Part shown: positions 1,365 through 63,362 of the stretch, in pieces
How positions within the stretch are numbered: position 1 is the stretch's first letter
Layout of the letters: each line of letters starts with the position of its first letter
IMG/VR virus record: IMGVR_UViG_2513237141_000003
Coordinates: 1-64,000 of that record
From: a virus
Lineage: Duplodnaviria; Heunggongvirae; Uroviricota; Caudoviricetes
Direction: 5' to 3' (one strand)
DNA: 64,000 nucleotides
Notes under the pieces: model-generated
What the model was told of the DNA's origin: nothing
The model's database searches: none
The model's input: only the letters and a program-made list of their open reading frames with translations
Made by a program: the position numbers and the translations under genes

Positions 1365-2306
1365 CTATAGGGCCCCGGCCGGGCCCAGCGCCGCCTTCAG
1401 GCACTCCAGCACGGGCGCACTGGTCGAGTTGCGCTCGATGGCCTCGATGGCGCCGGTGACGGCATCGCGGAGGCGGGCGTTCTCGGCCTCCAGCTTCGCT
1501 GACTTCTCAGCCGGCGTCATCGCCCCATCCCCGCGTTTCTGGACGTAGAACAGGTAGGACTCGAATGGCTCCGTCTTGGCGTTGATGGTGATCTCGACGA
1601 AGTTCTTGGCGTCGCTATCGCGGAACCATTCGGTCATGATCGTGGCGAGCCGTTCGACGACATTGCCGGCCAAGGACATGTCGAGCTTGCCGTTCTCGAG
1701 CCGCATGCTCTTGAGGGTGGGGTCGGTGAGGTCGTTGATCTGCTTTTGCAGTACCGCAATCAAATCGTCTTTGGCGTCTGGCGCCTGCACGCGGTTGTTG
1801 GCGGCGTACCGAAGCGCCCACACGATGGTCTGATCATCGAACTCGCAGACGAACCACTCGGGGTCATCCTCGATCAGCTGCGCAAGCCCGAGCAGCTCCT
1901 CGCGCTCGGCTTGGCAGATCTCATCAATGGGTTTCTCCGGCAACGGCGAGTGCTTCGGCTTCGCCGCCTGCTTTGCACGGATCTTGTCGATGTTGCTCCA
2001 GACGCGGGCGAGCTCGGTCTCGCTGGCTTGTTCGATGCTGATGTTGTTGCAGTTGGCGAGCGCCGCCAGCGTCACCATGGTGCCGCCAAGCTCCTGGTTG
2101 ATCTCACCTTGCGGGCGTCCGTACACGTAGTCGACCAGCTGATGCGCCTCGCTCACGGTGCAGCCGAGCGACTGCACAAGCTCAAGCGCCTCCTCCAGGA
2201 AACGATGGTTGCGCTCGGTGACGTCGCGGGCGATATCCTCTCCGAAGCACGCCAGCATCCAGTCATAGACGCGCTCTTGGAAGGAGCGCACATAAATCTG
2301 ATTCAT
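1365..2306 (-). CDS. hypothetical protein, N-terminal MazG-like NTP pyrophosphohydrolase-like segment
   Basis: ORF starts at MNQIYVR; EExLELVQS...E.NQELGG resembles the MazG helix motif. Confidence 0.45.
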   Translation of the reverse strand: MNQIYVRSFQERVYDWMLACFGEDIARDVTERNHRFLEEALELVQSLGCTVSEAHQLVDYVYGRPQGEINQELGGTMVTLAALANCNNISIEQASETELARVWSNIDKIRAKQAAKPKHSPLPEKPIDEICQAEREELLGLAQLIEDDPEWFVCEFDDQTIVWALRYAANNRVQAPDAKDDLIAVLQKQINDLTDPTLKSMRLENGKLDMSLAGNVVERLATIMTEWFRDSDAKNFVEITINAKTEPFESYLFYVQKRGDGAMTPAEKSAKLEAENARLRDAVTGAIEAIERNSTSAPVLECLKAALGPAGAL

Positions 2307-2319
2307 GACGGCCCCCCCC

Positions 2320-3264
2320 TCACGCTGCGGTCGGCGCATGGACTTCGGGCAGACCGTGGCCGATGCTCGGCCGCGCGTGCTCGGGATGGTCCTTGAACCA
2401 CTCTTGGACCCTCCACAATTGGCCACATCCACCTCCTATGGTGTCCTGGCCGGCGGGATCGAACACACGGACATCGAAGCCGCGCGCGAGTAGGCGGTTG
2501 GCAAACGAGGTCGCCAGATCGCGCTGGTGCTGGTTGGTGGCTGGGATGCCCTCCGAGCGCTCGCACACGACGGAGACCGTGGCGCAGAAGATGGCAGGGT
2601 CGAACCACCCGAGGATGCGGTTGGCATCGGCGTCTGTCTCGTTGCCGTCGTGGGCGCAGTAGTTGAAGAACGGCTTGCGACCGGTGGCTACGTGCCAGTC
2701 CACACCGAACTCCATGATCTCGCGCAAAGTCATCTTCTGCTTGAACGGGATCAGCGCGTCACGTGCCTCGTCCGTGCTCTCGTGAACAGAGAACTGCAGG
2801 CCGATGGTCGGGATCTCGCGGCTGATGTCGAGGACCTCATTGAGGCCATGCCGGGTGAGTTTCGGCGCCGATGTCGAGATGAGCAACGCCGCCTTCGGAT
2901 AGCTGTAGTAGAGGTCCCGCAGTGCCGGCACGAGCGCTTTCAGATTGAGCAGCGGCTCGCCCATCGACATGAACATGATCTGCAGCCGACCGATCTCCTG
3001 CGGATCGGCGCCGACCAGGGAGAGTAGGTGGGCAGGCTGGGAGACGATCTCGCCGGCCGTGAGCGAGCGGGCGAAGTGATCGCCCGCGCCGCAGAACCTG
3101 CACCCAACGGGGCAACCCGACTGCGTGGAGCAACAGATCACGGTGCGGGTCTTGTAGTCTGGGTATTTGTAGAGCACGGCCTCAGCGACCGCGGTGTCCT
3201 TGGTGAACACGAATTTTGCGACGTTCTGGGCGGAATCGTCGATGCGACGGATATCGTTCCACAT
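2320..3264 (-). CDS. RlmN/Cfr-family radical SAM RNA methyltransferase-like protein
   Basis: CxxxCxxC (CPVGCRFCGAG), GMGEPLLN motif, C-terminal GGGCGQLW as in RlmN Cys355 region; hairpin-SD cassette upstream. Confidence 0.8.
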   Translation of the reverse strand: MWNDIRRIDDSAQNVAKFVFTKDTAVAEAVLYKYPDYKTRTVICCSTQSGCPVGCRFCGAGDHFARSLTAGEIVSQPAHLLSLVGADPQEIGRLQIMFMSMGEPLLNLKALVPALRDLYYSYPKAALLISTSAPKLTRHGLNEVLDISREIPTIGLQFSVHESTDEARDALIPFKQKMTLREIMEFGVDWHVATGRKPFFNYCAHDGNETDADANRILGWFDPAIFCATVSVVCERSEGIPATNQHQRDLATSFANRLLARGFDVRVFDPAGQDTIGGGCGQLWRVQEWFKDHPEHARPSIGHGLPEVHAPTAA

Positions 3265-3269
3265 TATTG

Positions 3270-3304
3270 GGTCTCCTTGTTGGCACCTCCTGCGAAGAGG
3301 CGCT
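3270..3304 (-). promoter_or_regulatory. 5'-UTR hairpin (UUCGCAG loop) + CAAGGAGACC SD cassette
   Basis: ggtctccttg + cctcCTGCGAAgagg; upstream of the RlmN-like gene. Confidence 0.6.
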
Positions 3305-3311
3305 GATGGAA

Positions 3312-3413
3312 TTAGTGCCAGATCAGAATAGCCGCAACGATCGCCACGCCGGTCACGATCAAGTAGCGGATCAGAATCTGCATGTTGCGATGGTTGATCT
3401 CTTGATAGTTCAT
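3312..3413 (-). CDS. 33-aa hydrophobic micro-peptide (MNYQEINHRNMQILIRYLIVTGVAIVAAILIWH)
   Basis: ATG 8 nt after the conserved SD 10-mer; own hairpin cassette; one TM helix; not in ORF track (<60 aa). Confidence 0.35.
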   Translation of the reverse strand: MNYQEINHRNMQILIRYLIVTGVAIVAAILIWH

Positions 3414-3418
3414 GGACG

Positions 3419-3455
3419 GGTCTCCTTGTGGGAAGACCCCGCTGCGAACGGGGTC
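3419..3455 (-). promoter_or_regulatory. hairpin-SD cassette
   Basis: ggtctccttg + gaccccgCTGCGAAcggggtc; micro-peptide gene. Confidence 0.6.
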
Positions 3456-3464
3456 GGGGATTGT

Positions 3465-4661
3465 TTACTTGCTAGGCGCCACTGCTTTGCTCAGCCAGTC
3501 GCTGATGCTGGATGGCAGCCACCACAGCGAGACGCTAGAGGGCAGGGCGCCATTCCACTTGTTGGCGATGGTGCGAGTACCCTCGGCGGTCGCAAGTGCT
3601 TGCAGCGTCGCGGTATAGGGCGCCATGGTCTTGGCCACCTCGATATCCTGGGAGGCGACATAGCGACGGTTGACGGCGTCCTGCACGTCCTTGTTGAACT
3701 CGAACGTGTCGGCCCAACCGATGAAGTCGAGCGTGATGCCGACCGACGCCATGTATTCGGTCACCGCTTTCTTGATGTCCTCCATGATCTTAGCCGCTTG
3801 CTTGTTGTTATCGTCAAGCGAGCGCGCGGAGACCTGATCACACACAAGCGCCTGCACGCGGGACCGCACCGGGCCGTCCATTACTTCGGACAGCGACTTG
3901 CCCCGGTAAACAGACGTGAACACGATTTCCGGGTTATTGCGATCTCCGGCGGGCGGATTAACGCCAAACCGAAAGAGGAACTTCGGCGCGTTCTCCTCAT
4001 AGACCGAGGCGCCGATCGCCACACCCACCGTGACGTCAAGGCCTTCGGAAGACTGGCACGGGAAGGATTGATCGCCGGCGGTGGAGCCGCGGTGAGGCGA
4101 CTTGACCCATTCGCGCGAGACCGGCGTACGGTCGACGACGATCAGGCGTCCCGCAGGAACATAGTAGTTCGACCATGCGCCCGAATTGGGCAGCTTGGTG
4201 TGCGGGATCTCGAAGCGCTTGGCAGCGATCTTGTGCTCGTTGAGATACTGTTCGGAGCCGAACGATGCCTGCGACGACTTGTTGTCGCCGACATCGGGTA
4301 TGAAGAACGCCGATTCGTTCGGGAGGATGAAGTAGTTCTCCGTATAGTCGGACTGGCTGTAATAGGCGGACGCGGGCTGCGGGACGCCCGCCAGCAAGAG
4401 CACGATCAGACTGGCGAACAGCGCGCGCAGCGGCTTCAGCCAGATCAGGAACAGCCCTGCCACGACGGCGATGCCGATCAGAAACATTGCGCCGTTGTAG
4501 GCGCGGAAGGCGCCTTGGGTCGCCAGATATGACAGGTCACTGGCCTCGAACTGTTTACCGGCGATCTGTCCGAGCGCGAGCGTCGCCGGAGTATTGAATA
4601 AGAATGATGCAAGCGCCGCGCCAGCCAAGAGGGCGAGCGTCAGGAAGATGCGGAACTTCAT
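3465..4661 (-). CDS. SPFH/band-7-like membrane protein
   Basis: 398 aa; two N-terminal TM helices; SPFH-like core; cassette upstream. Confidence 0.5.
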   Translation of the reverse strand: MKFRIFLTLALLAGAALASFLFNTPATLALGQIAGKQFEASDLSYLATQGAFRAYNGAMFLIGIAVVAGLFLIWLKPLRALFASLIVLLLAGVPQPASAYYSQSDYTENYFILPNESAFFIPDVGDNKSSQASFGSEQYLNEHKIAAKRFEIPHTKLPNSGAWSNYYVPAGRLIVVDRTPVSREWVKSPHRGSTAGDQSFPCQSSEGLDVTVGVAIGASVYEENAPKFLFRFGVNPPAGDRNNPEIVFTSVYRGKSLSEVMDGPVRSRVQALVCDQVSARSLDDNNKQAAKIMEDIKKAVTEYMASVGITLDFIGWADTFEFNKDVQDAVNRRYVASQDIEVAKTMAPYTATLQALATAEGTRTIANKWNGALPSSVSLWWLPSSISDWLSKAVAPSK

Positions 4662-4668
4662 GGGATGA

Positions 4669-4704
4669 GGTCTCCTTGTGGATAATGCCGCTGCGAACGG
4701 CGGT
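4669..4704 (-). promoter_or_regulatory. hairpin-SD cassette
   Basis: gccgCTGCGAAcggc; SPFH gene. Confidence 0.6.
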
Positions 4705-4880
4705 TAAGAAGCTTGTTGACGACCCTCGCGGCGGGCCTGCCAGATGATGGCTGCAATGATGCCAACGTTGAGAGCGTGCATGCTGAGGCTGGGCCATGAC
4801 GGGAACGCCGAGAAAGCCGTCATGACAACCGATCCGATCCCGAGCCAGGTCGAAGGCCTTGTATGGATATCAAAGTTCAT
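4704..4880 (-). CDS. 58-aa membrane protein
   Basis: MNFDIHTRPSTWLGIGSVVMTAF...; hydrophobic; intergenic position between SPFH and SBP genes. Confidence 0.35.
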   Translation of the reverse strand: MNFDIHTRPSTWLGIGSVVMTAFSAFPSWPSLSMHALNVGIIAAIIWQARREGRQQAS

Positions 4881-4982
4881 GGTCGCCCCTTGAATTTGTT
4901 GGGAGGCTTGCGGCGCCTCCCGTGCCGTTTACGCGACGGAACGCAGGTTGGTCGCCTCGCGCGAGAGGTGACGCATGGGGGA

Positions 4983-5864
4983 TTACTGAGGCTGAGCGAG
5001 CTTAGCGATCTCAGGCCTTGCCGCCTGGAAGGACCGAAGCAGGCCGTCGTAGGCGCTGTCGTTGGCATTGATCCAGTTGGTGTTGGCGACAAAGATCGCG
5101 TCCACCTGGATCGTGCCGATGGCCTTGGTGCCGTAGACGGTCCCCGAGGGCTGGATTCGCGGGTAGGTGCCAGCCGGGATCTCTCCATAGCTGTAGACGT
5201 ACTGGCCACGCGCATCCTTGGCGACCGTAGTCATGTCGCGGTCGTCGGTCCCGACCAGCACGACGTTGTCGCCGGCATTCGAGGCGTCGTTCTTCATGAA
5301 CGAGCTGTTGAGTGCCGCGATCACGAGGGCGCACTGGACCTGCGTCCCATCTGCAACGGCCTGTACGGCGCGGATGCCGGAACGGATGTCCGTGTTGATC
5401 TGGCCATAACGCTTCTTGTCGGCCAGGACGAACGCGTCCCATGTGGTGTGCGCGCCGGAGCCCTCGGGGCCGATCGCGACCGTCATGTCCTTGGTCAGGT
5501 TGACCATGCGGCCGAGATCAAGCTTGCGGTTGCAGATCATGTGCGCCTGCTCCTTGTAGAGCACTCCGGCGCGCTCGATCGCCGCGATCGCCTTGGCGTT
5601 GCGGTTCGAATAGACGAGCAGGGCGTCCGACTGCACAAAGGCTCCGTCACAGTCGCCGTTCGTCACCTTGTCGAGGTTGTCCAGCGAGCCCTTGGTCTCG
5701 ATCACATCGACCTGAACGCTGGTCGATTTTGACTTCAACATGTAGCCAGCCTTGTAATAGTTCAGCTGGCTGTTGCCGGTGCAGAGCTTGAAGCTGGCCG
5801 CTTCGGCAGAGCTTGCCGTTGCGATCAGCGCGAGCGCTGCGAGGATCAGGTAAGGCGTCTTCAT
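4983..5864 (-). CDS. secreted periplasmic substrate-binding-like protein (TAXI/PhnD-like fold suspected)
   Basis: 293 aa; signal peptide (ALALIATASSAEA); cassette upstream. Confidence 0.5.
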   Translation of the reverse strand: MKTPYLILAALALIATASSAEAASFKLCTGNSQLNYYKAGYMLKSKSTSVQVDVIETKGSLDNLDKVTNGDCDGAFVQSDALLVYSNRNAKAIAAIERAGVLYKEQAHMICNRKLDLGRMVNLTKDMTVAIGPEGSGAHTTWDAFVLADKKRYGQINTDIRSGIRAVQAVADGTQVQCALVIAALNSSFMKNDASNAGDNVVLVGTDDRDMTTVAKDARGQYVYSYGEIPAGTYPRIQPSGTVYGTKAIGTIQVDAIFVANTNWINANDSAYDGLLRSFQAARPEIAKLAQPQ

Positions 5865-5866
5865 GC

Positions 5867-5895
5867 GGTCTCCTTGTTGCCTCTCGCGAAGAGGG
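5867..5895 (-). promoter_or_regulatory. hairpin-SD cassette (loop TCGCGAA variant)
   Basis: SBP gene. Confidence 0.5.
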
Positions 5896-5909
5896 CGGTT
5901 GGTGGTGGT

Positions 5910-6152
5910 TTAAGAGCTGCTAGAGTTGTTCGCGCTGACGATCTTCGGGACGAACACATCCTTGAGGATGCTGACGACGACGAAGATCGCGACGCAGTCG
6001 AAGAAGCCGGGGTGGCGATAGACGTCCGGCAGCCAATAGGCGTAGGTCTCGCCGATGCCAAAGACCGTCCACAGCAGCCAGAACGGAACGGCAAGGCAGA
6101 AGGCGAAAAAGATGGCCAGCAGCCAGCCGACGAGCGGGATCTTGTTCAACAC
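5910..6152 (-). CDS. ~80-aa membrane protein
   Basis: GTG start after variant cassette; two predicted TM helices (WLLAIFFAFCLAVPFWLLWTVFGI; VAIFVVVSIL). Confidence 0.4.
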   Translation of the reverse strand: MLNKIPLVGWLLAIFFAFCLAVPFWLLWTVFGIGETYAYWLPDVYRHPGFFDCVAIFVVVSILKDVFVPKIVSANNSSSS

Positions 6153-19368: not shown

Positions 19369-19379
19369 CTTTCGACCAT

Positions 19380-19410
19380 CCCGTTCGCAGCGGGATCAAC
19401 CAAGGAGACC
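19380..19410 (+). promoter_or_regulatory. hairpin-SD cassette (plus-strand copy)
   Basis: cccgTTCGCAGcggg + caaggagacc; CHAP-like gene. Confidence 0.6.
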
Positions 19411-19878: not shown

Positions 19879-20781
19879 ATGAAAACACTTTGCATCTACC
19901 ACGGCGGCTGTCCCGATGGATATGCGGCCGCATGGTGCGTCCGCAAGGCGCTTGGCGATGCCGTCGAGTTCTATCCCGGCGTCTACCAGAAGGACCCGCC
20001 GCCGTGCGACGGGCGCGACGTCATCCTCGTCGACTTTAGTTACAAGGCGCACGTCCTGCATGAGATGGCGTCGAAGGCCGCCACGATCCTGATCTTGGAT
20101 CACCACAAGACGGCGCAGGAGGACCTTGCCTCGCTGCCGCCGCCACTCGATGGACCGTACAACCCGGCCGCCATGCTGGCGTGGCAACGCGAATGCAATT
20201 CGCCGAACGCGATGCACGCCCTGTTCGACATGGACCGTTCAGGCGCGGCGATTGCCTGGGACTATTTCGTCGCCGGCGAGCGCCCGGACTTCATCGAATA
20301 TGTCCAGGACCGCGACCTCTGGCGCAAGCAAAAGGCTTTCGGCGACCAGTTCTCGATCGCGCTGGCGTCCTACCCGCAGGACTTCATGGTCTGGGATATG
20401 TTGATCGAGAGGGGCGTGAGCTCATTGATTGAGGAGGGGTACTCGATCAATCGCTACTACCGCCAGCGCGTCGAGGAGCTGAAGAGCCACGCCTACATGG
20501 CCAAGCTCGGCAACCATCTCGTCTGCATCGCGAACGCGCCGTATTTCGCCGCAAGCGAGGTGGCGGGCGAGCTGTCCCACCGGGAAGGGGCGGCCTTCGG
20601 CGCCTGCTACTTCGAGGTCGAGCCGGGCAAATTCCAGTATTCGCTGCGCTCGCGCGGCGACTTCGATGTCAGCGCGGTGGCAAAACAGTTCGGCGGTGGC
20701 GGCCACAAGGCCGCGGCCGGCTTTGCCTTGCGTGGTGTTGCCCATCGGCCTGTCGACAGTCTCGGTAACGAGACCAAGTGA
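19879..20781 (+). CDS. DHH-family phosphoesterase (NrnA/RecJ-like)
   Basis: motifs HGGCPDG, D(x)D, ILDHHK, GGGGHKAAAGF; cassette upstream. Confidence 0.8.
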   Translation: MKTLCIYHGGCPDGYAAAWCVRKALGDAVEFYPGVYQKDPPPCDGRDVILVDFSYKAHVLHEMASKAATILILDHHKTAQEDLASLPPPLDGPYNPAAMLAWQRECNSPNAMHALFDMDRSGAAIAWDYFVAGERPDFIEYVQDRDLWRKQKAFGDQFSIALASYPQDFMVWDMLIERGVSSLIEEGYSINRYYRQRVEELKSHAYMAKLGNHLVCIANAPYFAASEVAGELSHREGAAFGACYFEVEPGKFQYSLRSRGDFDVSAVAKQFGGGGHKAAAGFALRGVAHRPVDSLGNETK

Positions 20782-35467: not shown

Positions 35468-35950
35468 GTTGAAGTGGTCGAGCCACTCACGGAGTTGGTG
35501 GCGTTGCTCGCCGATGCCTCCGTGGGTGCGGGTGATGTCGGCATCGGCCGCGATCCAGCCTTCTTGCTGGAAATGGCCGATGTAGTGGTCGAGCACCCGG
35601 CGATATTCCGATCCCGCCGCCACCAGGATGCGCCGCCGAGCGGGGCGCATCTGTTGCTGGTGCGAGAGGGGCATGAATGTGTCGGATGCCTTGGTGAGGC
35701 CGCGCCGCTCCATGAAGGTGTCGGCGCGGCCCGGCGTCAGCCGCTGTTCGTACGGCTGTATCCACCGCTGGGCTTCAATGAAGCCGTACTCGGCTGAGAG
35801 GACGTAGACATCCGTCCAGTCGAACGCGCCGCGGTGCGTCTTGAGCGTGAGCCACATCGGCCCTTGGTAGAGCCGATGTGGTGGGCCTGGGTCTTTGCTC
35901 TTGGTGGCGCTACAGGCCATGAAGATGGCGGCGTCGCTATAGCGCCGCAT
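35444..35950 (-). CDS. hypothetical protein
   Basis: overlaps the upstream MTase stop. Confidence 0.5.
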   Translation of the reverse strand: MRRYSDAAIFMACSATKSKDPGPPHRLYQGPMWLTLKTHRGAFDWTDVYVLSAEYGFIEAQRWIQPYEQRLTPGRADTFMERRGLTKASDTFMPLSHQQQMRPARRRILVAAGSEYRRVLDHYIGHFQQEGWIAADADITRTHGGIGEQRHQLREWLDHFNRVRRPNT

Positions 35951-37742
35951 CGATCACGACCAGGGCGGTGTTGACCATCGTGCCGGACTCCTTGAACGTG
36001 CCGGCAGGAAGGTCACGCCACTCGACCGCGATCGGCTGAAGCTTGGCGCGCTGGCGCGGACCGTTGGCGCAGATCGCCACGATCCGGCCGCCCGGCCTTA
36101 ACAAGGTCCGCGCGTGCTCGATGTGGCGGATGTCTGCGCCGTTCTCGAATGGCGGGTTCATCACGATGCGGTCGAACTTCGCATCCTGCGTGCAGCCTGC
36201 CATGTCGAGAAAGTCCGCATTGACGACGGTCACGCCCGGGAAGCGTTGCGCCAGACCCTGCGCCAGCTGCGGATTGATCTCGACGGCGACCGCGCTCAGG
36301 CAGCCATCGACTGATCGGCGGGCGACATCAAGCAGCATGCCAGTGCCGGCGCTTGGCTCCAGCAAACGATGACCATCCTGCAAGTCGGCCAGCTCCGCCA
36401 CCTCTTCAGCCAGCGACGCTGGCGTCGGGAACAGTTGCGGAGCGGTAACGACCTGCACGCCGCCATTACGGAGAGTATCTGCCATGGCTTCGAACGACGA
36501 GGCTTCCGGCTTTTCCGTTTGCTCGGTGCGAGGCGGGCGGGCGACGAACTCCCGCACGAACTCGGCGGGCTCGGTCTTTTTCGGTTCCTGGTGTGCCTTG
36601 CTGTCGGTCAGGAACACGCTCACAAGGCTGTGCTTGATCATGGCCGTCCGGAAGCGGTGCAGCTTGTCCGACCCCAATCGCACGCCGCGATAGTCGTTAT
36701 TGATCTTGGCGTATTCCGCCTTTGTCATCTCGACCTGGGGGTAGGTGATCGTGCGGCCCCGGTCGTACTGGTTCTCCGTCGTGATGGCGCCGCCGGTTGC
36801 GCGGTAGTTGAGAAGCGGCATCAATTCCCGACGAGGCTTTGGCGCCAGCAGCTGGGTTGCGCCCTGTTCCTCAAGCATGGCGCGTTCGTAGGCCAAGCGG
36901 TTGTCGTAATGTTCGATCCAGCGGTCGCACTGCTCGATCGATCGCGGGTAAACCCGCTTTGCATGCTCGACGACCTCGGCCACGGTGCGCGGCGCGTAGA
37001 GGTTGGGGTAGCGGTTTGTCAGTCCGTCAGATGCTGTCGGACGCTGATCGAAATCCGGCTTGTCTCCTTCCTTGCGTGGCAGATGAAGCCAACAGCGATC
37101 TGCGATGGCGATCGCAATTTTCATTTGCTTGTCGGCATCCGCCTCACCCCCGCAAGCGGTCCAGAGCTTAAGCCACATTTCGGACTCAGCCTTGCTGCGC
37201 TCGCTCTTGCGCTTGTCGGCTTCAATGGTCTTGATGCGACGCGCGCGCACCTCCGGCAGTTCCTTGTACTTGGCATGCCGGACGGCGCCAGCGGCGCGCG
37301 CCGTCCAATATTGCGAGGTGCGCCACATCTTGACGGCCTTGCGCATGCCGTTCTCGATCCGCTCCGCATCCCTGCGTGCGTGCTTCTCGGAATGGTGACC
37401 CACGAGGATGGGTTGGCCAAGCGGGATATTGTCCGCGATCGCATCGACGGTGGCCTTTGCGCGATTGGCGTCGGCCATCCGCTTGTCGCTATAGTCCTCG
37501 AAGCGCTCTGCGCGCTCCTCGGCGCGGTCGATCAAGCTTGTGTCCTCGTCTCCGATCTCCTCGCAGAGTTCGGTCAACAGGTCCTCACGATCCGGCGTCC
37601 ACATGGGCGCAACGAATAGCTCTTGCTTCGGCGCCCACTTGAAGCCGGCGGCTTTCACGCGGGCATAGGTCTCGGCGTCGAGACGGGTCGAGGCATAGAG
37701 GCGGAGCTTGTTGTCGTCGGGGGAATAGGTGGCATTCATCAT
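35937..37742 (-). CDS. orphan N6-adenine DNA methyltransferase with ~450-aa N-terminal domain
   Basis: C-terminal motif I LEPSAGTG then motif IV NPPF (gamma-like order); no adjacent restriction-enzyme gene; cassette upstream. Confidence 0.8.
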   Translation of the reverse strand: MMNATYSPDDNKLRLYASTRLDAETYARVKAAGFKWAPKQELFVAPMWTPDREDLLTELCEEIGDEDTSLIDRAEERAERFEDYSDKRMADANRAKATVDAIADNIPLGQPILVGHHSEKHARRDAERIENGMRKAVKMWRTSQYWTARAAGAVRHAKYKELPEVRARRIKTIEADKRKSERSKAESEMWLKLWTACGGEADADKQMKIAIAIADRCWLHLPRKEGDKPDFDQRPTASDGLTNRYPNLYAPRTVAEVVEHAKRVYPRSIEQCDRWIEHYDNRLAYERAMLEEQGATQLLAPKPRRELMPLLNYRATGGAITTENQYDRGRTITYPQVEMTKAEYAKINNDYRGVRLGSDKLHRFRTAMIKHSLVSVFLTDSKAHQEPKKTEPAEFVREFVARPPRTEQTEKPEASSFEAMADTLRNGGVQVVTAPQLFPTPASLAEEVAELADLQDGHRLLEPSAGTGMLLDVARRSVDGCLSAVAVEINPQLAQGLAQRFPGVTVVNADFLDMAGCTQDAKFDRIVMNPPFENGADIRHIEHARTLLRPGGRIVAICANGPRQRAKLQPIAVEWRDLPAGTFKESGTMVNTALVVIDAAL

Positions 37743-37747
37743 TGATT

Positions 37748-37779
37748 GGTCTCCTTGAGTTATCCCGCTGCGAACGGGG
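37748..37779 (-). promoter_or_regulatory. hairpin-SD cassette
   Basis: cccgCTGCGAAcggg; MTase gene. Confidence 0.6.
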
Positions 37780-37783
37780 GTGG

Positions 37784-38161
37784 TTAGGCAGTGAGGAAGG
37801 TCAGGCCCTTGTCGAGCGCTCCAACGAAGTCGGTCAGCGTGTACTTGATCGTGGTCGCCTTCTGCCGATGGAATTGATTGATGGAGCCGACGACACAGAA
37901 CTCGTCGGGGTAGGTCGCATCGGACCTGCTGCTTGTGTGCCAGTGGCCGAGATAGGCGCCGATCTTCTCGGAACCGTCGAAGTGCATCATGCACTGGTAT
38001 GGTCCGCAGATCAGTTCGAGGCCGATCTCGCGAGGGCCGTTGAACTCATGCAGCTCGATGGTCGCGCCGTGCTTGTCGGCGATGGTGCGAACGGCGTCGA
38101 GACACTGCTGGCGTCCCTTCTTCGTGGCGCACAGGCGGTCGTACTCATTGTGTCGTGACAT
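37784..38161 (-). CDS. hypothetical protein
   Basis: cassette upstream. Confidence 0.5.
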   Translation of the reverse strand: MSRHNEYDRLCATKKGRQQCLDAVRTIADKHGATIELHEFNGPREIGLELICGPYQCMMHFDGSEKIGAYLGHWHTSSRSDATYPDEFCVVGSINQFHRQKATTIKYTLTDFVGALDKGLTFLTA

Positions 38162-47580: not shown

Positions 47581-47631
47581 CGGTCTCCTTGGTTGCAGGC
47601 ATGAAAAAGGCCCCGCTGCGAACGGGGCCTA
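47581..47631 (-). promoter_or_regulatory. hairpin-SD cassette
   Basis: aggccccgCTGCGAAcggggcct. Confidence 0.6.
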
Positions 47632-56606: not shown

Positions 56607-56682
56607 TCTGGACGTAGCGCAGTTGGTAGCGTACCGCACTTGGAATGCGGGGGTCGTCGGTTCGAGCCCGACCGTCCAGACC
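56607..56682 (+). tRNA. tRNA-Pro (TGG)
   Basis: cloverleaf; acceptor ctggacg/cgtccag; anticodon loop cuUGGaa; CCA encoded. Confidence 0.8.
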
Positions 56683-56684
56683 AA

Positions 56685-56772
56685 TCCGTGAGTGCCGGAG
56701 TGGTCAATCGGGGCGGGCTGTAAACCCGCCGGCTTTCGGGCCTTCGCTAGTTCAAATCTAGCCTCACGGACC
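56685..56772 (+). tRNA. tRNA-Tyr (GTA), long variable arm
   Basis: acceptor ccgtgag/ctcacgg; loop cuGUAaa; CCA. Confidence 0.8.
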
Positions 56773-56775
56773 AAT

Positions 56776-56851
56776 TACCCGCTTGGTCCAGTGGTCTAAG
56801 ACGTCGGACTTTGACTCCGAAGACAGTCGTTCAAATCGACTAGCGGGTGCC
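56776..56851 (+). tRNA. tRNA-Gln (TTG)
   Basis: acceptor acccgct/agcgggt; loop cuUUGac; CCA. Confidence 0.75.
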
Positions 56852-56894
56852 AAGAGATTGACCAGCCGCAGGTTGATCGGCTATCAGGCTGGGC

Positions 56895-57401
56895 ATGACC
56901 CTTGCCAAGGCTTCCCTCGTTGTAGCAGTCCTCATCGCCGCCGCGTCCAGCGCAGCCGGCGAGGGGCAGCCTATTACGGAGGCCATGAAGCCGGTCATGG
57001 CCGCAGCCCGCATCTTTGCGCTCGAAAACCACCTCCACGGCGACATCGCTGTTGCCGATGAGGACGAGGGCCACATCGGCCGCAGTTTCGAGGTCAACCA
57101 CGCCCCGGGCGAAGCCTGCACCTTCACGATGCGGCGCCGCGGCGGGCCAGTGATCGAGACGATCAGCTTCGATCGTCTGTCCGGTGAATATCACGCCTGG
57201 CCGCAGCACGGTTATGCGCGGCTCGCCATTTCAGGCCAGCCTGGCGCTCAGTGCGAGGTCAGCGGCGGCGTCAAGCGCTGCTCGCCCAACCTGGATATGC
57301 TGCTGATGGTCGAAGGCTCGCCGAGCGAGCTCGACCTGGCGCGGCGCGCGCTGGATTACATCTTCGAGAACGTGTGCCGTCCGGCACAACTGCCATTCTG
57401 A
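56895..57401 (+). CDS. secreted hypothetical protein inside the tRNA island
   Basis: signal peptide; 168 aa. Confidence 0.5.
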   Translation: MTLAKASLVVAVLIAAASSAAGEGQPITEAMKPVMAAARIFALENHLHGDIAVADEDEGHIGRSFEVNHAPGEACTFTMRRRGGPVIETISFDRLSGEYHAWPQHGYARLAISGQPGAQCEVSGGVKRCSPNLDMLLMVEGSPSELDLARRALDYIFENVCRPAQLPF

Positions 57402-57493
57402 AAGCTCAAGGTCACACCATGTCGTCGTTTAGTCACTCATCACATATCGCCGGAAGGGTGACGCGGTAACACGACCGCCGCCCTTCCTGTTTG

Positions 57494-57579
57494 CGGAGGG
57501 TGGCGCCCATGGTGGGCAAACAGTCTCGAAAACTGCGCCCCGGTCTCCCGGTGATGGTTCGAATCCTTCACCCTCCGCC
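57494..57579 (+). tRNA. tRNA-Ser (CGA), long variable arm
   Basis: acceptor ggagggt/accctcc, G73, CCA; loop cuCGAaa; coordinates +/-2. Confidence 0.7.
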
Positions 57580-57580
57580 A

Positions 57581-57656
57581 CGCCGAGGTAGCTCAGCTGG
57601 TAGAGCGGCGCGTTGAAAGCGCGCGCGTCGGAGGTTCGAACCCTTCCCTCGGCACC
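57581..57656 (+). tRNA. tRNA-Phe (GAA)
   Basis: acceptor gccgagg/cctcggc; loop uuGAAag; CCA. Confidence 0.8.
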
Positions 57657-57670
57657 AACTCTTCCCAAGG

Positions 57671-57746
57671 TGCCGGCTTAGTTCAATTGGTTAGAACGCT
57701 CGATTGTGGCTCGGGAAATCGCGGTTCGAGCCCGCGGGCTGGTACC
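57671..57746 (+). tRNA. tRNA-His (GTG), alpha-proteobacterial type (no G-1, A73)
   Basis: D/anticodon/T arms canonical; loop uuGUGgc; acceptor has three G-U pairs. Confidence 0.6.
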
Positions 57747-57785
57747 AACTTTCGCGGACTCGAACGGTGTGCTAAGGCGCACGCC

Positions 57786-57977
57786 ATGACCTTCGAGGAT
57801 GAGCTCACCGCACTGCTCATGAAGTATCTCGGTCCAGACGCGCGCCCGCGAGACTGGTACCGGATCGGCGGGGAACTGGAAACCGCGTTGCACTGGGTGG
57901 ACTCGCGGTCGTCGGCTAGGTTTACTCCAGAGGAGTTTGACGCCGATCTTGAAGCCGACGAGGCGGAGAGGGAGTGA
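57786..57977 (+). CDS. hypothetical acidic protein (64 aa) between tRNAs
   Basis: ORF MTFEDELTALL... Confidence 0.4.
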   Translation: MTFEDELTALLMKYLGPDARPRDWYRIGGELETALHWVDSRSSARFTPEEFDADLEADEAERE

Positions 57978-57982
57978 ATTTC

Positions 57983-58056
57983 GACGATGTGGCCGAGTGA
58001 TGAGGCAGACGGCTGCAACCCGTCTCACGTTGGTTCGATTCCATCCATCGTCTCCA
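57983..58056 (+). tRNA. tRNA-Cys (GCA)
   Basis: acceptor gacgatg/catcgtc; loop cuGCAac; CCA. Confidence 0.75.
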
Positions 58057-58254
58057 ATTCCGAGACCTCGGTAACTCCATCCCGCCAGATGATCACTGGC
58101 GCGGCCTGGCTCGAGGTGCGGATGCTCGCAAGGTAGACGGCGTCGCGGCTTGCGGCCTGCGGCGCCCGTGTCCATGGCTTGTCCCGTCCCGCCTTGCGTT
58201 TAGGTCTCTGCGTCGTCCGCTAGCGGCGCTCCGGCTAACGGGAAAAAGTTTCGT

Positions 58255-58330
58255 TGGGTTGTAGCTCAGTCGGTAGAGCAGGCGGCTGTTAACCGCCGCG
58301 TCGCTGGTTCGAATCCAGCCTTCCCAGCCA
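58255..58330 (+). tRNA. tRNA-Asn (GTT) with two U-U mismatches in the acceptor stem
   Basis: D, anticodon (cuGUUaa) and T arms canonical; CCA present; pairs 5-68 and 6-67 mismatched. Confidence 0.55.
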
Positions 58331-58331
58331 A

Positions 58332-58406
58332 GCCGGGGTAGCTCAGCGGTAGAGCAGCGACTTTGTAAGTCGACGGTCGTCGGTTCAAATCCCTCTCTCG
58401 GCACCA
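58332..58406 (+). tRNA. tRNA-Thr (TGT)-like, non-canonical T-stem (possible pseudo-tRNA)
   Basis: acceptor gccgggg/tctcggc (2 G-U); loop uuUGUaa; T-stem has two central mismatches. Confidence 0.45.
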
Positions 58407-58444
58407 ATTTCCTTCCCCATCTTCCCCAACAGACGAGTCCCCAC

Positions 58445-59749
58445 ATGCCTGATATCGGCGAGCGCAAGCTCGCGACGATCCGTCGCGTCTCGAAGATCGA
58501 CCCCATCGAGGGTGCTGACCGCATCGTCAAGGCCACCATCGACGGCTGGGAGCTGGTCACCCAGAAGACCAACTACCAGGTCGGCGATCTCTGCCTCTAC
58601 TTCGAGATCGACAGTTTCTTGCCGGTGCGGCCAGAGTTCGAGTTCCTGCGCGACAAGTGCTTCAAGTCGGTTGCAGGCCTTGGTGACGGCTTCCGCATCA
58701 AGACCATGAAGATGAAGGGCGTGGTGTCGCAGGGGCTTAGCCTGCCGCTGTCGGACTTCTTCGATAAGGAAGATGACGGCCGCTACTTCTACATCGCCCC
58801 GGAGACCAAATGGGAGCGTGAACGCCTCGAACGTCGTGAATGGGTCGAGCCGACCCGGGTCTTCCTTGAGGAGGGCATGGACGTCACCGACTACCTCGGC
58901 GTCAAGAAGTATGAAAAGCCGGCCGCCGGTAATGGCGGCGGGTCGAAGCTTGGCCCGACGCATGCCCGCGGCGGCTTCCCCGACTTCCTGCAAAAGACCG
59001 ATCAGGAGCGCATCCAGAACTGTCTGAGCGGTGTGCTGAAATGGATCTATTACGGAGCACCCGTCGTCACCGAGGTGTTTAATCCCGTAGTCATCGAAAA
59101 CCTGAACCTGGGTCGGGTCGAGAACAGCGCGGAGTCTTACTACTTCAAGTCCGGCGACCAGTGGTTCCACAAGGCTGCGGTCCGCAACGATGATGAGACC
59201 ATCGCCAAGCGCCAGCAGTTCGAAGTGACGCTGAAGCTCGATGGATCGTCGATGACGGTCTATCACAACGACTACAGCTACGGCGTCTGCTCGCGAAACT
59301 TCGACCTCAAGCGGGACGAGGCGTCGCTATTCTGGCAGCAGGCCGCCGATGGGATCATCGCGGCGTTGGTTGTCGTCGGCAAGAACGTGGCGCTCCAAGG
59401 CGAGCTGATGGGCCCCGGCATTCAGGGTAACCGCGAAGGATTCGCCACTAACCAGTTCTTCGCCTTCGACGTCTATGACATCGATCAGTCGAGGTACATG
59501 ACGCCGGATGAGCGGTTCGGCTTCCTGCGCAATCTGCAGGGCATTGGCTGCGGCATCCAGCACGCGCCGGCACTCGCTCATGACTACGTGCTCACCGAGA
59601 CGACAACGGTGAATGATCTGCTCAAGATCGCGGATCGGGCCAGCTTCAACAACCCGATCGCTGAAGGTGTCGTGTTCAAGTCCCTCGTCGCCGGCGGACC
59701 GACCTTCAAGGTGATCAACAACAAGTTCCTGTTGGCTGAGAAGGACTGA
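58445..59749 (+). CDS. ATP-dependent RNA ligase (Rnl-like nucleotidyltransferase) with N-terminal OB-like domain
   Basis: KxDG motif I (VTLKLDGSS); covalent nucleotidyltransferase layout; embedded in the tRNA island. Confidence 0.75.
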   Translation: MPDIGERKLATIRRVSKIDPIEGADRIVKATIDGWELVTQKTNYQVGDLCLYFEIDSFLPVRPEFEFLRDKCFKSVAGLGDGFRIKTMKMKGVVSQGLSLPLSDFFDKEDDGRYFYIAPETKWERERLERREWVEPTRVFLEEGMDVTDYLGVKKYEKPAAGNGGGSKLGPTHARGGFPDFLQKTDQERIQNCLSGVLKWIYYGAPVVTEVFNPVVIENLNLGRVENSAESYYFKSGDQWFHKAAVRNDDETIAKRQQFEVTLKLDGSSMTVYHNDYSYGVCSRNFDLKRDEASLFWQQAADGIIAALVVVGKNVALQGELMGPGIQGNREGFATNQFFAFDVYDIDQSRYMTPDERFGFLRNLQGIGCGIQHAPALAHDYVLTETTTVNDLLKIADRASFNNPIAEGVVFKSLVAGGPTFKVINNKFLLAEKD

Positions 59750-59761
59750 ATACACTTTCAT

Positions 59762-59836
59762 TGCAGGGTGGAGCAGCGGTAGCTCGGCGCGCTCATAACG
59801 CGTAGGTCGCCGGTTCGATCCCGGCCTCTGCAACCA
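59762..59836 (+). tRNA. tRNA-Met/Ile2 (CAT), elongator-type
   Basis: acceptor tgcaggg/ctctgca, with 1-72 paired; loop cuCAUaa; CCA. Confidence 0.75.
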
Positions 59837-62630: not shown

Positions 62631-63362
62631 ATGTCCGGCCTCGACGCGATCAAGCATCCGCGCGGCGACGACCTGATCGCCTCCTACAAGGAGCGGTTCG
62701 GCGACAAGACGCTGATCGCCTTCTCCCGCGGCAAGGACTCGGTCGCAGTCGCGCTTGCGCTGCGCGACAAGATCGAGGTGATCCCATTCTACTACGACTA
62801 TCCGATGAAGCTCAGCTTCGTCGAGGAGAGCCTCGCCTATTACGAGAAGCATCTGTTCGGCAGGCGCATCCTGCGCATGCCGGACGTGGCCTTCAACAAG
62901 CATCTGCGCGACGGCTTCCTGCAGCCCGTGCGCCGCGCTGAAATTCTCACCAACGCCTCGCTGCCGCGCCTCGACCACCCCGACATCCTGCGCATGGTCA
63001 AGAAGCAGGAGGGGATTGAAGGCACTAGCATCCTGACCGCCACCGGTGTCCGCGCCCTCGACAACGCGATCCGCTTCCTCTCAATCAAGAAGCACGGCCC
63101 GATCCGCTCTACCGCCGGCAACTGGGCGCCGATCTGGCACTGGTCGAAGCAGGATCTGCTGGATGCGATCGAGAGCAGCGGCATCTCGCTGCCGCCCGAT
63201 TACACCTTCCTGCCGCGATCGCTCGACGGCTTCTCATACCTTTTCCTGATCCCGCTCAAGGAACGCTTCCCCGAGGACTACCAGCGCATCATCGAATGGC
63301 TCCCCTTAGCGCCAGTCGAGGAGAAGCGCTGGGAGCTCTATCAAAGGTACTTCGCACAGTGA
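62631..63362 (+). CDS. PAPS-reductase-family PP-loop ATPase (DndC/QueC-like superfamily)
   Basis: PP-loop SRGKDS with LIAFSRGKDSVAVALAL context. Confidence 0.75.
   Translation: MSGLDAIKHPRGDDLIASYKERFGDKTLIAFSRGKDSVAVALALRDKIEVIPFYYDYPMKLSFVEESLAYYEKHLFGRRILRMPDVAFNKHLRDGFLQPVRRAEILTNASLPRLDHPDILRMVKKQEGIEGTSILTATGVRALDNAIRFLSIKKHGPIRSTAGNWAPIWHWSKQDLLDAIESSGISLPPDYTFLPRSLDGFSYLFLIPLKERFPEDYQRIIEWLPLAPVEEKRWELYQRYFAQ

What the first reader, a model, noticed from the sequence alone, without database searches (positions are those of the whole stretch)
2320..3264. Phage-encoded RlmN/Cfr-family radical SAM methyltransferase
All hallmark RlmN/Cfr elements are present in a 314-aa ORF lacking the N-terminal accessory domain: the CxxxCxxC cluster, GMGEPLLN, and the C-terminal GGGCGQLW methyl-transfer cysteine. 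Host RlmN methylates 23S A2503 C2 and tRNA A37; Cfr methylates A2503 C8. A phage copy could retune or protect the translation apparatus, or modify phage RNAs. Its own cassette loop contains an A in a UCGCAG context, but that link is pure speculation. It sits in the int-proximal cargo region next to the SPFH and substrate-binding-protein genes.
Basis: partly seen in the sequence, partly recalled or inferred. Interest (0 to 1): 0.6.

Follow-up and report, generated by a model that had tools for sequence, protein, structure and literature searches.

The report
Phage RlmN-like enzyme tied to NAD
This prophage gene encodes an intact but shortened relative of the RNA-methylating enzymes RlmN and Cfr; its family is spread through phages of many bacterial phyla and repeatedly sits inside NAD+ salvage gene clusters, so it may not act on the ribosome at all.

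Summary
The ORF is real: window 2320-3264, minus strand, 314 aa, the longest reading frame possible. It carries every catalytic hallmark of RlmN/Cfr-type radical SAM methyltransferases. HMMs, PDB sequence search and a high-confidence AlphaFold model all put RlmN and Cfr as nearest relatives.

It is not an ortholog of either:
- It scores 95 bits against a 290-bit RlmN cutoff.
- It lacks the RNA-binding N-terminal domain.
- It has lost conserved arginines and has an acidic core.
- Its clade separates from RlmN+Cfr in 100/100 neighbour-joining bootstraps.

The clade is carried by prophages and large lytic phages of Pseudomonadota, Actinomycetota, Bacteroidota and Bacillota, at 43-81% identity to this copy.

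Unexpectedly, 31 of 119 dereplicated loci have NAD+ genes beside it (18 within 500 bp), in several different operon layouts. These include NAMPT, NMNAT-Nudix, PncA, PncB, NadE, the regulator NrtR and a NARP1-like pair. No such genes occur in this window.

The methylation chemistry is well supported. The substrate is unresolved: I slightly favour an NAD-related adenine nucleotide over tRNA/rRNA. I rate it a new variant of a known kind.

The parts
2320..3264 (-). ORF of 314 aa: short radical SAM methyltransferase of the RlmN/Cfr superfamily, lacking the N-terminal domain
3091..3114 (-). Codons for C51-x3-C55-x2-C58, the radical SAM [4Fe-4S] motif. These align with E. coli RlmN C125/C129/C132.
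3133..3135 (-). Codon for C44, equivalent to RlmN C118 and Cfr C105, the cysteine that resolves the covalent enzyme-substrate intermediate. C45 follows directly.
   Evidence: read on the sequence
3181..3183 (-). Codon for E28, invariant in the family. It is equivalent to RlmN E105 and Cfr E91, where E91A abolishes resistance.
2944..2967 (-). Codons for SMGEPLLN (residues 100-107), the SAM-binding glycine motif
2413..2436 (-). Codons for GGGCGQLW (residues 277-284). C280 is equivalent to RlmN C355 and Cfr C338, the methyl-carrying cysteine.
3272..3303 (-). Upstream cassette: a hairpin GCGCCTC-UUCGCAG-GAGGTGC followed by AAGGAGA (Shine-Dalgarno) and the ATG. This is one of 27 such cassettes in the prophage. 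It shows the gene is wired into the phage's own expression scheme.

Best explanation
The gene encodes an active class A radical SAM C-methyltransferase from a distinct, phage-borne third branch of the RlmN/Cfr superfamily.

Predicted chemistry, inferred from conserved residues:
1. One SAM methylates C280.
2. A second SAM is cleaved at the C51/C55/C58 [4Fe-4S] cluster to give a 5'-deoxyadenosyl radical.
3. That radical abstracts H from methyl-C280.
4. The resulting methylene radical adds to an sp2 carbon of an adenine ring (C2 or C8).
5. C44 resolves the covalent adduct.

Proposed substrate, inferred from family-wide context and not shown: an NAD-related adenine nucleotide (NAD+, or a precursor or breakdown product such as NaAD or ADP-ribose), not 23S rRNA or tRNA. 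On this reading the enzyme works alongside phage NAD+ reconstitution and salvage during infection. One possibility is that it creates a methylated NAD+ pool that immune NADases handle poorly.

In this prophage it is a stand-alone early-left-operon gene and would act on the host's pool.
For: Fold and chemistry:
- The best HMMs are RlmN (4e-27) and Cfr (7e-21).
- The best PDB sequences are RlmN 6fz6, RlmN 3rf9 and Cfr 9p0p.
- The AlphaFold model has pLDDT 94. Its top 10 Foldseek hits are all RlmN or Cfr (E 1e-19 to 9e-14), and the next hit is at 3e-6.
- E28, C44, C51/55/58, F57, S130, S159, H161 and C280 match the Cfr residues whose alanine mutants reduce or abolish activity.

Departure from RNA enzymes:
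- There is no RlmN_N domain. Kaminska et al. (PMC2836569) describe that domain as the positively charged RNA-binding face of an otherwise negatively charged enzyme.
- E. coli R344 (100% conserved in the canonical set), R347 (86%) and R206 (81%) align with F268, A271 and A125 here.
- Core net charge has a median of about -5, against about +4 in canonical members.

NAD link:
- The commonest Pfam families among 124 immediate neighbours are NAPRTase/NAMPT, NAD synthase, NUDIX, NMNAT and isochorismatase.
- NAD genes lie beside the gene in 31 of 119 dereplicated loci.
- Their density falls from 15.4 to 3.0, 0.5 and 0 per 100 kb with distance.
- They are spread over 17 of 49 clusters defined at 70% identity.
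- At least five layouts occur: NadM-rSAM-NAMPT; nrtR-NAMPT-rSAM; pncB-pncA-rSAM-nrtR with 4-nt overlaps in an isolate genome; pncB-rSAM-nadE; and Prs-like plus NAMPT-like (a NARP1-like pair) followed by rSAM in cultured Vibrio phages.
- Fusion proteins exist: rSAM+NUDIX and rSAM+HD.
Against: - No characterised member of this superfamily acts on anything but RNA.
- About three quarters of loci, including this 64-kb window and 6 of 7 sampled close relatives, have no NAD gene nearby.
- Phage accessory genes cluster in hyperplastic regions in any case. NadV is present in 22-33% of medium and jumbo phages (PMC9503650), so part of the association could be co-residence.
- tRNA genes lie within 2 kb in 14 of 164 loci and RtcB is nearby in about 7. 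This prophage carries 10 tRNA genes and an RNA ligase.
- Several conserved basic residues of RlmN are retained: K17, R40, R66, R168 and R196.
- Each methylation costs two SAM, so bulk modification of a millimolar NAD+ pool is stoichiometrically hard. This last point is my inference.
Confidence: 0.4

Rival explanations
1. It is an RNA adenine C-methyltransferase like its relatives. It would make m2A (or m8A) at A37 of phage or host tRNAs, or at A2503 of 23S rRNA. Recognition would rest on the local stem-loop alone, or on a partner protein, since the N-terminal domain is absent.
For: - Homology: all characterised relatives are RNA enzymes.
- The catalytic residues are intact.
- tRNA genes lie within 2 kb in 14 of 164 loci. 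In L029 three tRNA-Gln and two tRNA-Arg genes follow directly, and in phage ANB28 the gene sits inside a tRNA cluster.
- RtcB is adjacent in several loci.
- This prophage has 10 tRNA genes and an RNA ligase. Its tRNA-Gln(UUG) has the G36-A37-C38 pattern that suits E. coli RlmN.
- Identity of 43-66% across isolate genomes of four host phyla fits a universally conserved target.
Against: - The positively charged N-terminal RNA-binding domain is missing.
- Conserved arginines near the methyl-cysteine loop are lost and the core is acidic.
- Scores are far below the RlmN and Cfr cutoffs.
- The tRNA association is weaker than the NAD association and is not specific to RlmN-type tRNAs.
[quoted passage not shown] By inference that suits a lytic phage poorly.
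Confidence: 0.3
2. It modifies a nucleotide immune signal or another low-abundance adenine nucleotide, for example an ADP-ribose-derived or oligoadenylate second messenger. It would then be a counter-defence enzyme rather than one that modifies the NAD+ pool itself.
For: - The gene sits in islands that also hold macro, NADAR, NARP1-like or NARP2-like genes and, once, a Tad3 Thoeris inhibitor.
- A slow enzyme that spends two SAM per turnover suits low-abundance targets (my inference).
Against: - There is no direct evidence.
- PADLOC finds nothing.
- The association with NrtR-regulated Preiss-Handler genes (pncA, pncB, nadE) points to NAD metabolism itself rather than to signalling.
Confidence: 0.1
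3. It methylates adenine in DNA, or in the deoxynucleotide pool, as part of a phage DNA modification that blocks restriction.
For: - The gene lies in replication and recombination modules, next to DNA methyltransferases in three of four isolate prophages examined.
- It lies near RNR and ThyX in others.
- In this window a protein with a MazG-like fold follows 13 nt downstream.
- An rSAM+HD (dNTPase-like) fusion exists.
Against: - None of these neighbours recurs across the family.
- No 2- or 8-methyladenine DNA base is known (own knowledge).
- The enzyme class is slow and forms a covalent intermediate at each turnover, which suits genome-wide modification poorly (inference).
Confidence: 0.07

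Closest known systems
RlmN (23S rRNA m2A2503 / tRNA m2A37 methyltransferase; TIGR00048; PDB 3RFA, 5HR7, 6FZ6)
   Same: Same radical SAM core fold and the same CxxxCxxC motif. Both extra cysteines are present (C118 and C355 in RlmN, C44 and C280 here). E105 corresponds to E28, and the SAM-binding Ser/His/Phe residues match. RlmN is the best HMM, PDB-sequence and Foldseek match.
   Different: - About 22-28% identity.
- 95 bits against a 290-bit cutoff.
- No RlmN_N domain; about 80 N-terminal residues are missing.
- R344, R347 and R206 are replaced and the core is acidic.
- The cysteine loop reads IGGGCGQLW instead of DIDAACGQL.
- There is a conserved C-terminal helix and tail.
- It is carried by phages and is often embedded in NAD+ gene clusters.
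Cfr (23S rRNA m8A2503 methyltransferase conferring PhLOPSA resistance; TIGR04432, NF000424; PDB 9P0P)
   Same: Same superfamily and the same catalytic residues. The Cfr residues probed by alanine mutagenesis (E91, C105, C112/116/119, F118, S189, S212, H214, C338), whose loss reduces or abolishes activity, are all identical here.
   Different: - 70-75 bits against cutoffs of 468-550.
- In the neighbour-joining tree Cfr groups with canonical RlmN, and the short clade excludes both in 100/100 bootstraps.
- No N-terminal domain.
- The family is not found on resistance plasmids: plasmid hits are only canonical rlmN or cfr at 25-37% identity.
Phage NAD+ reconstitution pathways NARP1 (Adps+Namat) and NARP2 (Nampt+Nmnat), and NrtR-regulated NAD salvage operons
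   Same: The family's genes lie inside or directly beside these clusters in about a quarter of loci. Examples are the Vibrio phage PS17B-2 group and IMG/VR contigs.
   Different: The published descriptions of these pathways that I could search do not mention a radical SAM component. The prophage in this window has no NAD genes. Any functional role in NAD metabolism is inferred, not shown.

Membership tests
Radical SAM superfamily (PF04055) | CxxxCxxC motif binding a [4Fe-4S] cluster, and a Pfam score above the gathering threshold | tested here: met
   C51/C55/C58 are present. The score is 31.9 bits against 29.5.
Class A radical SAM methyltransferases (RlmN/Cfr superfamily) | Two additional conserved cysteines: the methyl carrier (RlmN C355) and the resolving cysteine (RlmN C118) | tested here: met
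   C280 and C44 align with them. C280 is conserved in close relatives, and a few distant members lack it.
Class A radical SAM methyltransferases (RlmN/Cfr superfamily) | Core fold most similar to RlmN and Cfr structures | tested here: met
   The top 10 Foldseek PDB hits are RlmN or Cfr, with E from 1e-19 to 9e-14 and TM 0.61-0.74. The next family is at 3e-6.
Class A radical SAM methyltransferases (RlmN/Cfr superfamily) | N-terminal helical accessory domain (RlmN_N, PF21016) that binds RNA | tested here: not met
   No hit at E<=1. The alignment starts at about residue 80 of E. coli RlmN. The ORF cannot be extended. The domain is detected in the canonical homologue P0229.
RlmN (equivalog TIGR00048 / PRK11194) | Score above the curated equivalog cutoff | tested here: not met
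   95 bits against 290, and 74 bits against 633.
Cfr (TIGR04432, NF000424, PRK14453) | Score above the curated cutoff | tested here: not met
   70.5 against 550, 74.9 against 530, and 70.5 against 468.
RlmN / Cfr | Placement inside the RlmN or Cfr clade | tested here: not met
   The short family of 49 representatives excludes 21 canonical RlmN and Cfr sequences in 100/100 neighbour-joining bootstraps. Neighbour-joining only; no maximum-likelihood tree was made.
RlmN / Cfr | Methylation of C2 or C8 of A2503 in 23S rRNA, or of A37 in tRNA | not testable with these tools
   This needs biochemistry or nucleoside mass spectrometry.
Phage NAD+ reconstitution / NrtR regulon (as an accessory member) | Conserved genomic linkage to NAD+ synthesis genes | tested here: inconclusive
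   Met for the family: 31 of 119 dereplicated loci, 18 of them within 500 bp, in five or more layouts. Not met for this window, which has no NAD genes in 64 kb.
Known anti-phage defence proteins (PADLOC) | Match to a defence-system model | tested here: not met
   No hit for the protein or for four neighbours at E<=0.1.

The most novel reading that the evidence does not exclude
The family is the first class A radical SAM methyltransferase that acts on a cofactor rather than on RNA. It would C-methylate the adenine (or, by Minisci-type addition, the pyridinium) ring of NAD+ or an ADP-ribose derivative. This would give phages an NAD+ pool, or an altered immune signal, that TIR/SIR2-type NADases cannot use. 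It would be a new natural cofactor variant and a new counter-defence principle that complements NARP1 and NARP2.
Probability: 0.15. Interest if true: 0.9.

Novelty: new variant of a known kind. Interest (0 to 1): 0.65.

Why it matters
- It defines a third, mobile branch of the RlmN/Cfr enzymes. The branch is widespread in phages of at least four bacterial phyla and has no dedicated family model and no experimental study that I could find.
- Pipelines currently label members '23S rRNA (adenine2503-C2)-methyltransferase'. That label is probably an over-annotation. It matters for resistance-gene surveillance, because Cfr-like activity confers multidrug resistance.
- The repeated embedding in NAD+ reconstitution and salvage operons suggests an unrecognised component of the phage-host conflict over NAD+.
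- The question is directly testable with cultured Vibrio, Stenotrophomonas and Salmonella phages.

Tried and rejected
- **PADLOC scan:** nothing found.
- **Rfam:** only tRNAs.
- **Obligate partner gene in the window:** none of the 313-aa downstream protein, the 33-aa peptide, SPFH, the substrate-binding protein or the phiTE_072-like protein was found beside homologues in the roughly 90 loci held at that point.
rejected on co-occurrence.
- **tRNA proximity:** present but modest. It is 36 of 160 loci within the flanks and 14 of 164 within 2 kb, and it is not specific to RlmN-type tRNAs.
- **Whole-protein pI:** not discriminating, since E. coli RlmN is itself 6.6. Core net charge was more informative.
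- **Promoter and terminator scan around the gene:** no independent promoter and no convincing terminator.
- **Literature:** ten full-text searches found no description of a phage RlmN-like enzyme or of a radical SAM partner of NAD+ pathways.
- **Papers not obtained:** Schwalm 2016 (RlmN-tRNA structure) and de Souza & Aravind 2012 could not be retrieved. I therefore could not check whether R344 and R347 contact RNA.

Full report
**1. The observation**

Window 2320-3264 holds a 314-aa ORF on the minus strand. It is the longest ORF possible in that frame. It starts 8 nt after an AAGGAGA Shine-Dalgarno. Its GC3 of 0.83 resembles that of its neighbours.

The CxxxCxxC motif (C51/C55/C58) and GGGCGQLW (277-284, C280) are present. 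The middle motif is SMGEPLLN, not GMGEPLLN. Pfam gives Radical_SAM just above its gathering score and gives no RlmN_N domain.

The protein is identical to a 'radical SAM protein' of Bradyrhizobium sp. Tv2a-2.

The surroundings are a prophage early region:
- An integrase lies at 1-1173.
- On the same strand follow a 313-aa protein, this gene, a 33-aa membrane peptide, an SPFH/Band_7 protein, an NMT1_3 binding protein, a phiTE_072-like protein, NinB, SSB, a RecE-like exonuclease and a repressor.
- A primase-helicase operon runs rightward.

**2. Family assignment**

The best NCBIfam hits are RlmN (4e-27, 95 bits) and several Cfr models (70-75 bits). All fall far below the curated cutoffs of 290 to 633 bits. 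The best PDB sequences are RlmN from Sphaerobacter (6fz6), E. coli RlmN and Cfr.

An AlphaFold model built on 37 family members has a mean pLDDT of 94.4. Its ten best Foldseek matches in the PDB are all RlmN or Cfr, with E from 1e-19 to 9e-14. The next family appears only at 3e-6.

I aligned the protein with E. coli RlmN and S. aureus Cfr, both fetched. The alignment starts at about residue 80 of RlmN. The following residues are identical to Cfr residues that Kaminska et al. probed by alanine substitution; most substitutions reduced or abolished activity (PMC2836569):
- E28
- C44
- C51, C55 and C58
- F57
- S130
- S159
- H161
- C280

The predicted chemistry is therefore the RlmN/Cfr ping-pong C-methylation. 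This is an inference from residues, not a demonstration.

**3. A separate clade**

A search of 1.8 billion cluster representatives found 5672 relatives at E<=0.001. Of these, 79 clusters scored below 1e-30. In a neighbour-joining tree of 87 full-length representatives, the short proteins of about 280-320 aa form one clade. Canonical RlmN plus Cfr form another. The split held in 100 of 100 bootstraps.

Compared with 21 canonical sequences, the short family shows these differences:
- It lacks the N-terminal domain, and with it the conserved R41 and R68.
- It has F268, A271 and A125 where E. coli R344 (100% conserved), R347 (86%) and R206 (81%) stand.
- Its core net charge has a median of about -5, against about +4.

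Kaminska et al. described the radical SAM core of Cfr as negatively charged. They described the N-terminal domain as the positive, probable RNA-binding face. The part thought to hold RNA is exactly what this family lacks.

**4. Distribution**

Homologues at 68-81% identity occur in Bradyrhizobium, Caulobacter, Phenylobacterium and many metagenomes.

In GenBank phages the family occurs in:
- Stenotrophomonas phages ANB28 and BUCTxx99 (61-62% identity)
- Xanthomonas phage JGB6
- Salmonella phage Arash (53%)
- seven Vibrio phages (about 50%)
- an Aeromonas strabovirus
- a 462-kb uncultured phage

IMG/VR gave at least 297 viral hits, many on contigs of 100-424 kb.

Among one-genome-per-species bacterial assemblies the family is patchy but crosses phyla, at 43-66% identity. 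Isolates include Cupriavidus, Rhizobium, Duganella, Curvibacter, Mycolicibacterium, Ornithinimicrobium, Actinomyces, Runella and Desulfosporosinus. In the four isolate loci I examined, the neighbours are prophage replication and recombination genes. Plasmids carry only canonical rlmN and cfr.

Such conservation across phages of different phyla argues for a universally conserved substrate.

**5. Context: the unexpected result**

No gene that flanks the ORF in this window recurs beside homologues elsewhere. I clustered neighbours across loci and annotated exemplars with Pfam. A different pattern emerged.

The genes found most often nearby are NAD+ enzymes:
- NAMPT
- NMNAT-Nudix (NadM)
- nicotinamidase PncA
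- NAPRTase PncB
- NAD synthetase NadE
- the ADP-ribose-responsive regulator NrtR (NUDIX plus NrtR_WHD)

Macro, NADAR, nucleoside-deoxyribosyltransferase-like and RtcB genes also recur.

A Pfam tally of 124 immediate neighbours puts NAPRTase/NAMPT, NAD_synthase, NUDIX, CTP_transf_like and isochorismatase at the top.

Counts after dereplication at 85% identity:

| Distance from the gene to the nearest NAD gene | Loci (of 119) | NAD genes per 100 kb of flank |
|---|---|---|
| under 0.5 kb | 18 | 15.4 |
| 0.5-2 kb | 10 | 3.0 |
| 2-5 kb | 3 | 0.5 |
| 5-10 kb | 0 | 0 |

In total 31 of 119 loci have an NAD gene in the flanks. The linked loci fall in 17 of 49 clusters defined at 70% identity, so this is not one lineage.

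The layouts differ:
- NadM-rSAM-NAMPT with an 11-nt gap (L034)
- NadM-NAMPT-rSAM
- nrtR-NAMPT-rSAM (L049)
- pncB-pncA-rSAM-nrtR with 4-nt overlaps, in the isolate Ornithinimicrobium murale (L113)
- pncA<>rSAM<>nrtR-nadE, in Saccharibacteria bins
- pncB-rSAM-nadE, in a gut Firmicutes bin (L137)
- a Prs-like gene plus a NAMPT-like gene (the NARP1 signature) followed 90 nt later by the rSAM gene, in cultured Vibrio phage PS17B-2

Fusion proteins also exist: rSAM+NUDIX (P0137) and rSAM+HD/HD_assoc (P0246).

Three papers were checked. None mentions a radical SAM enzyme:
- the paper that defined NARP1 and NARP2 (bioRxiv 10.1101/2024.02.11.579819)
- the survey of viral NAD+/ADP-ribose systems (PMC9503650)
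- the NrtR regulon paper (PMC2330246)

**6. Caveats on the NAD link**

- Most loci lack NAD genes. So does this entire 64-kb window, and so do six of seven sampled close relatives.
- NadV is common in medium and jumbo phages, at 22-33% (PMC9503650). Accessory genes also tend to cluster together.
- tRNA genes lie within 2 kb in 14 of 164 loci, and RtcB is sometimes adjacent.
- This prophage has ten tRNA genes with an embedded RNA ligase at 56.6-59.8 kb. Its tRNA-Gln(UUG) has the G36-A37-C38 loop that suits E. coli RlmN.

An RNA substrate therefore remains a serious rival.

**7. Verdict on mechanism**

Shown:
- The gene is intact.
- It belongs to the superfamily by homology and fold.
- The catalytic residues are complete.
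- The N-terminal domain is absent.
- It belongs to a separate clade.
- It is phage-borne.
- NAD genes are statistically enriched next to the family.

Inferred:
- It is an active C-methyltransferase that uses C280 and C44.
- Its substrate is an adenine ring.

Favoured but unproven (confidence 0.4): the substrate is an NAD-related nucleotide, and the enzyme supports phage NAD+ reconstitution. A stand-alone copy, as in this prophage, would act on the host pool.

Rivals:
- tRNA or rRNA methylation: 0.3
- modification of nucleotide immune signals: 0.1
- DNA or dNTP modification: 0.07

**8.

The 'cassette' is real and striking. A hairpin with a variable stem of 4-13 bp closes an invariant loop UUCGCAG, followed by AAGGAGAC(C) and a start codon. 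It precedes 27 genes, against 0.02 matches expected by chance. One copy sits directly upstream of this ORF.

The cassette is absent from 166 of the 169 loci fetched up to that point, nearly all of which carry a homologue. The three exceptions are L001, which is this same phage, and single matches in L029 and L041. The enzyme family does not travel with the element, so there is no support for the loop A being its target.

Noticed in passing
window 3272-47622, 27 sites (for example 3272-3303 -, 3421-3455 -, 19376-19408 +, 47584-47630 -): A repeated intergenic cassette. A hairpin with a variable, covarying stem of 4-13 bp closes an invariant 7-nt loop UUCGCAG. After 5-25 nt come AAGGAGAC(C) and a start codon. 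There are 27 matches against 0.02 expected. The element is absent from other phages that carry the rSAM gene and has no Rfam match. It could be a binding or processing site for a phage RNA-binding protein, or a translation signal.
   Followed up: partly
window 56608-59836: A cluster of 10 tRNA genes (Pro, Tyr, Gln, Ser, Phe, His, Cys, Asn, Thr, Met), all with an encoded CCA end. A 434-aa RNA ligase gene (58445-59749, phrog_968) is embedded in it, which looks like a tRNA supply-and-repair module. tRNA-Pro(UGG) has A37 where I would expect G37 (own knowledge).
   Followed up: partly
[not shown]
   Followed up: partly
window 3312-3413, 3465-4661, 4983-5864 (all -): Membrane and periplasmic cargo lies upstream of the rSAM gene: a 33-aa single-helix peptide, a 398-aa SPFH/Band_7 protein and an NMT1_3 substrate-binding protein. 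A Band_7 gene also lies 2.6 kb upstream of the rSAM gene in an unrelated contig (L173).
   Followed up: no
L177 (Vibrio phage PS17B-2, OZ196882.1) 2236-5927: A cultured phage carries ribose-phosphate pyrophosphokinase-like and nicotinamide phosphoribosyltransferase genes (the NARP1 signature), followed 90 nt later by the rSAM homologue. This is a ready experimental system.
   Followed up: partly
proteins P0137 and P0246: Natural fusions of the short rSAM domain exist: one to a NUDIX domain (P0137, 468 aa) and one to HD plus HD_assoc, a dNTPase-like architecture (P0246, 759 aa).
   Followed up: partly
L006 (Xanthomonas phage JGB6, OQ436456.1) 4995-6059; also OR529408.1: In these GenBank records the rSAM ORF is labelled 'prohibitin family protein', while a 110-aa ORF elsewhere is labelled 'radical SAM protein'. 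The product names appear shifted relative to the genes.
   Followed up: no
window 19879-20781, 35937-37994, 62631-63362: Other prophage accessory genes: a DHH phosphoesterase (phrog_4771), a 685-aa protein with a C-terminal DNA methyltransferase domain, and a PAPS-reductase-like protein.
   Followed up: no
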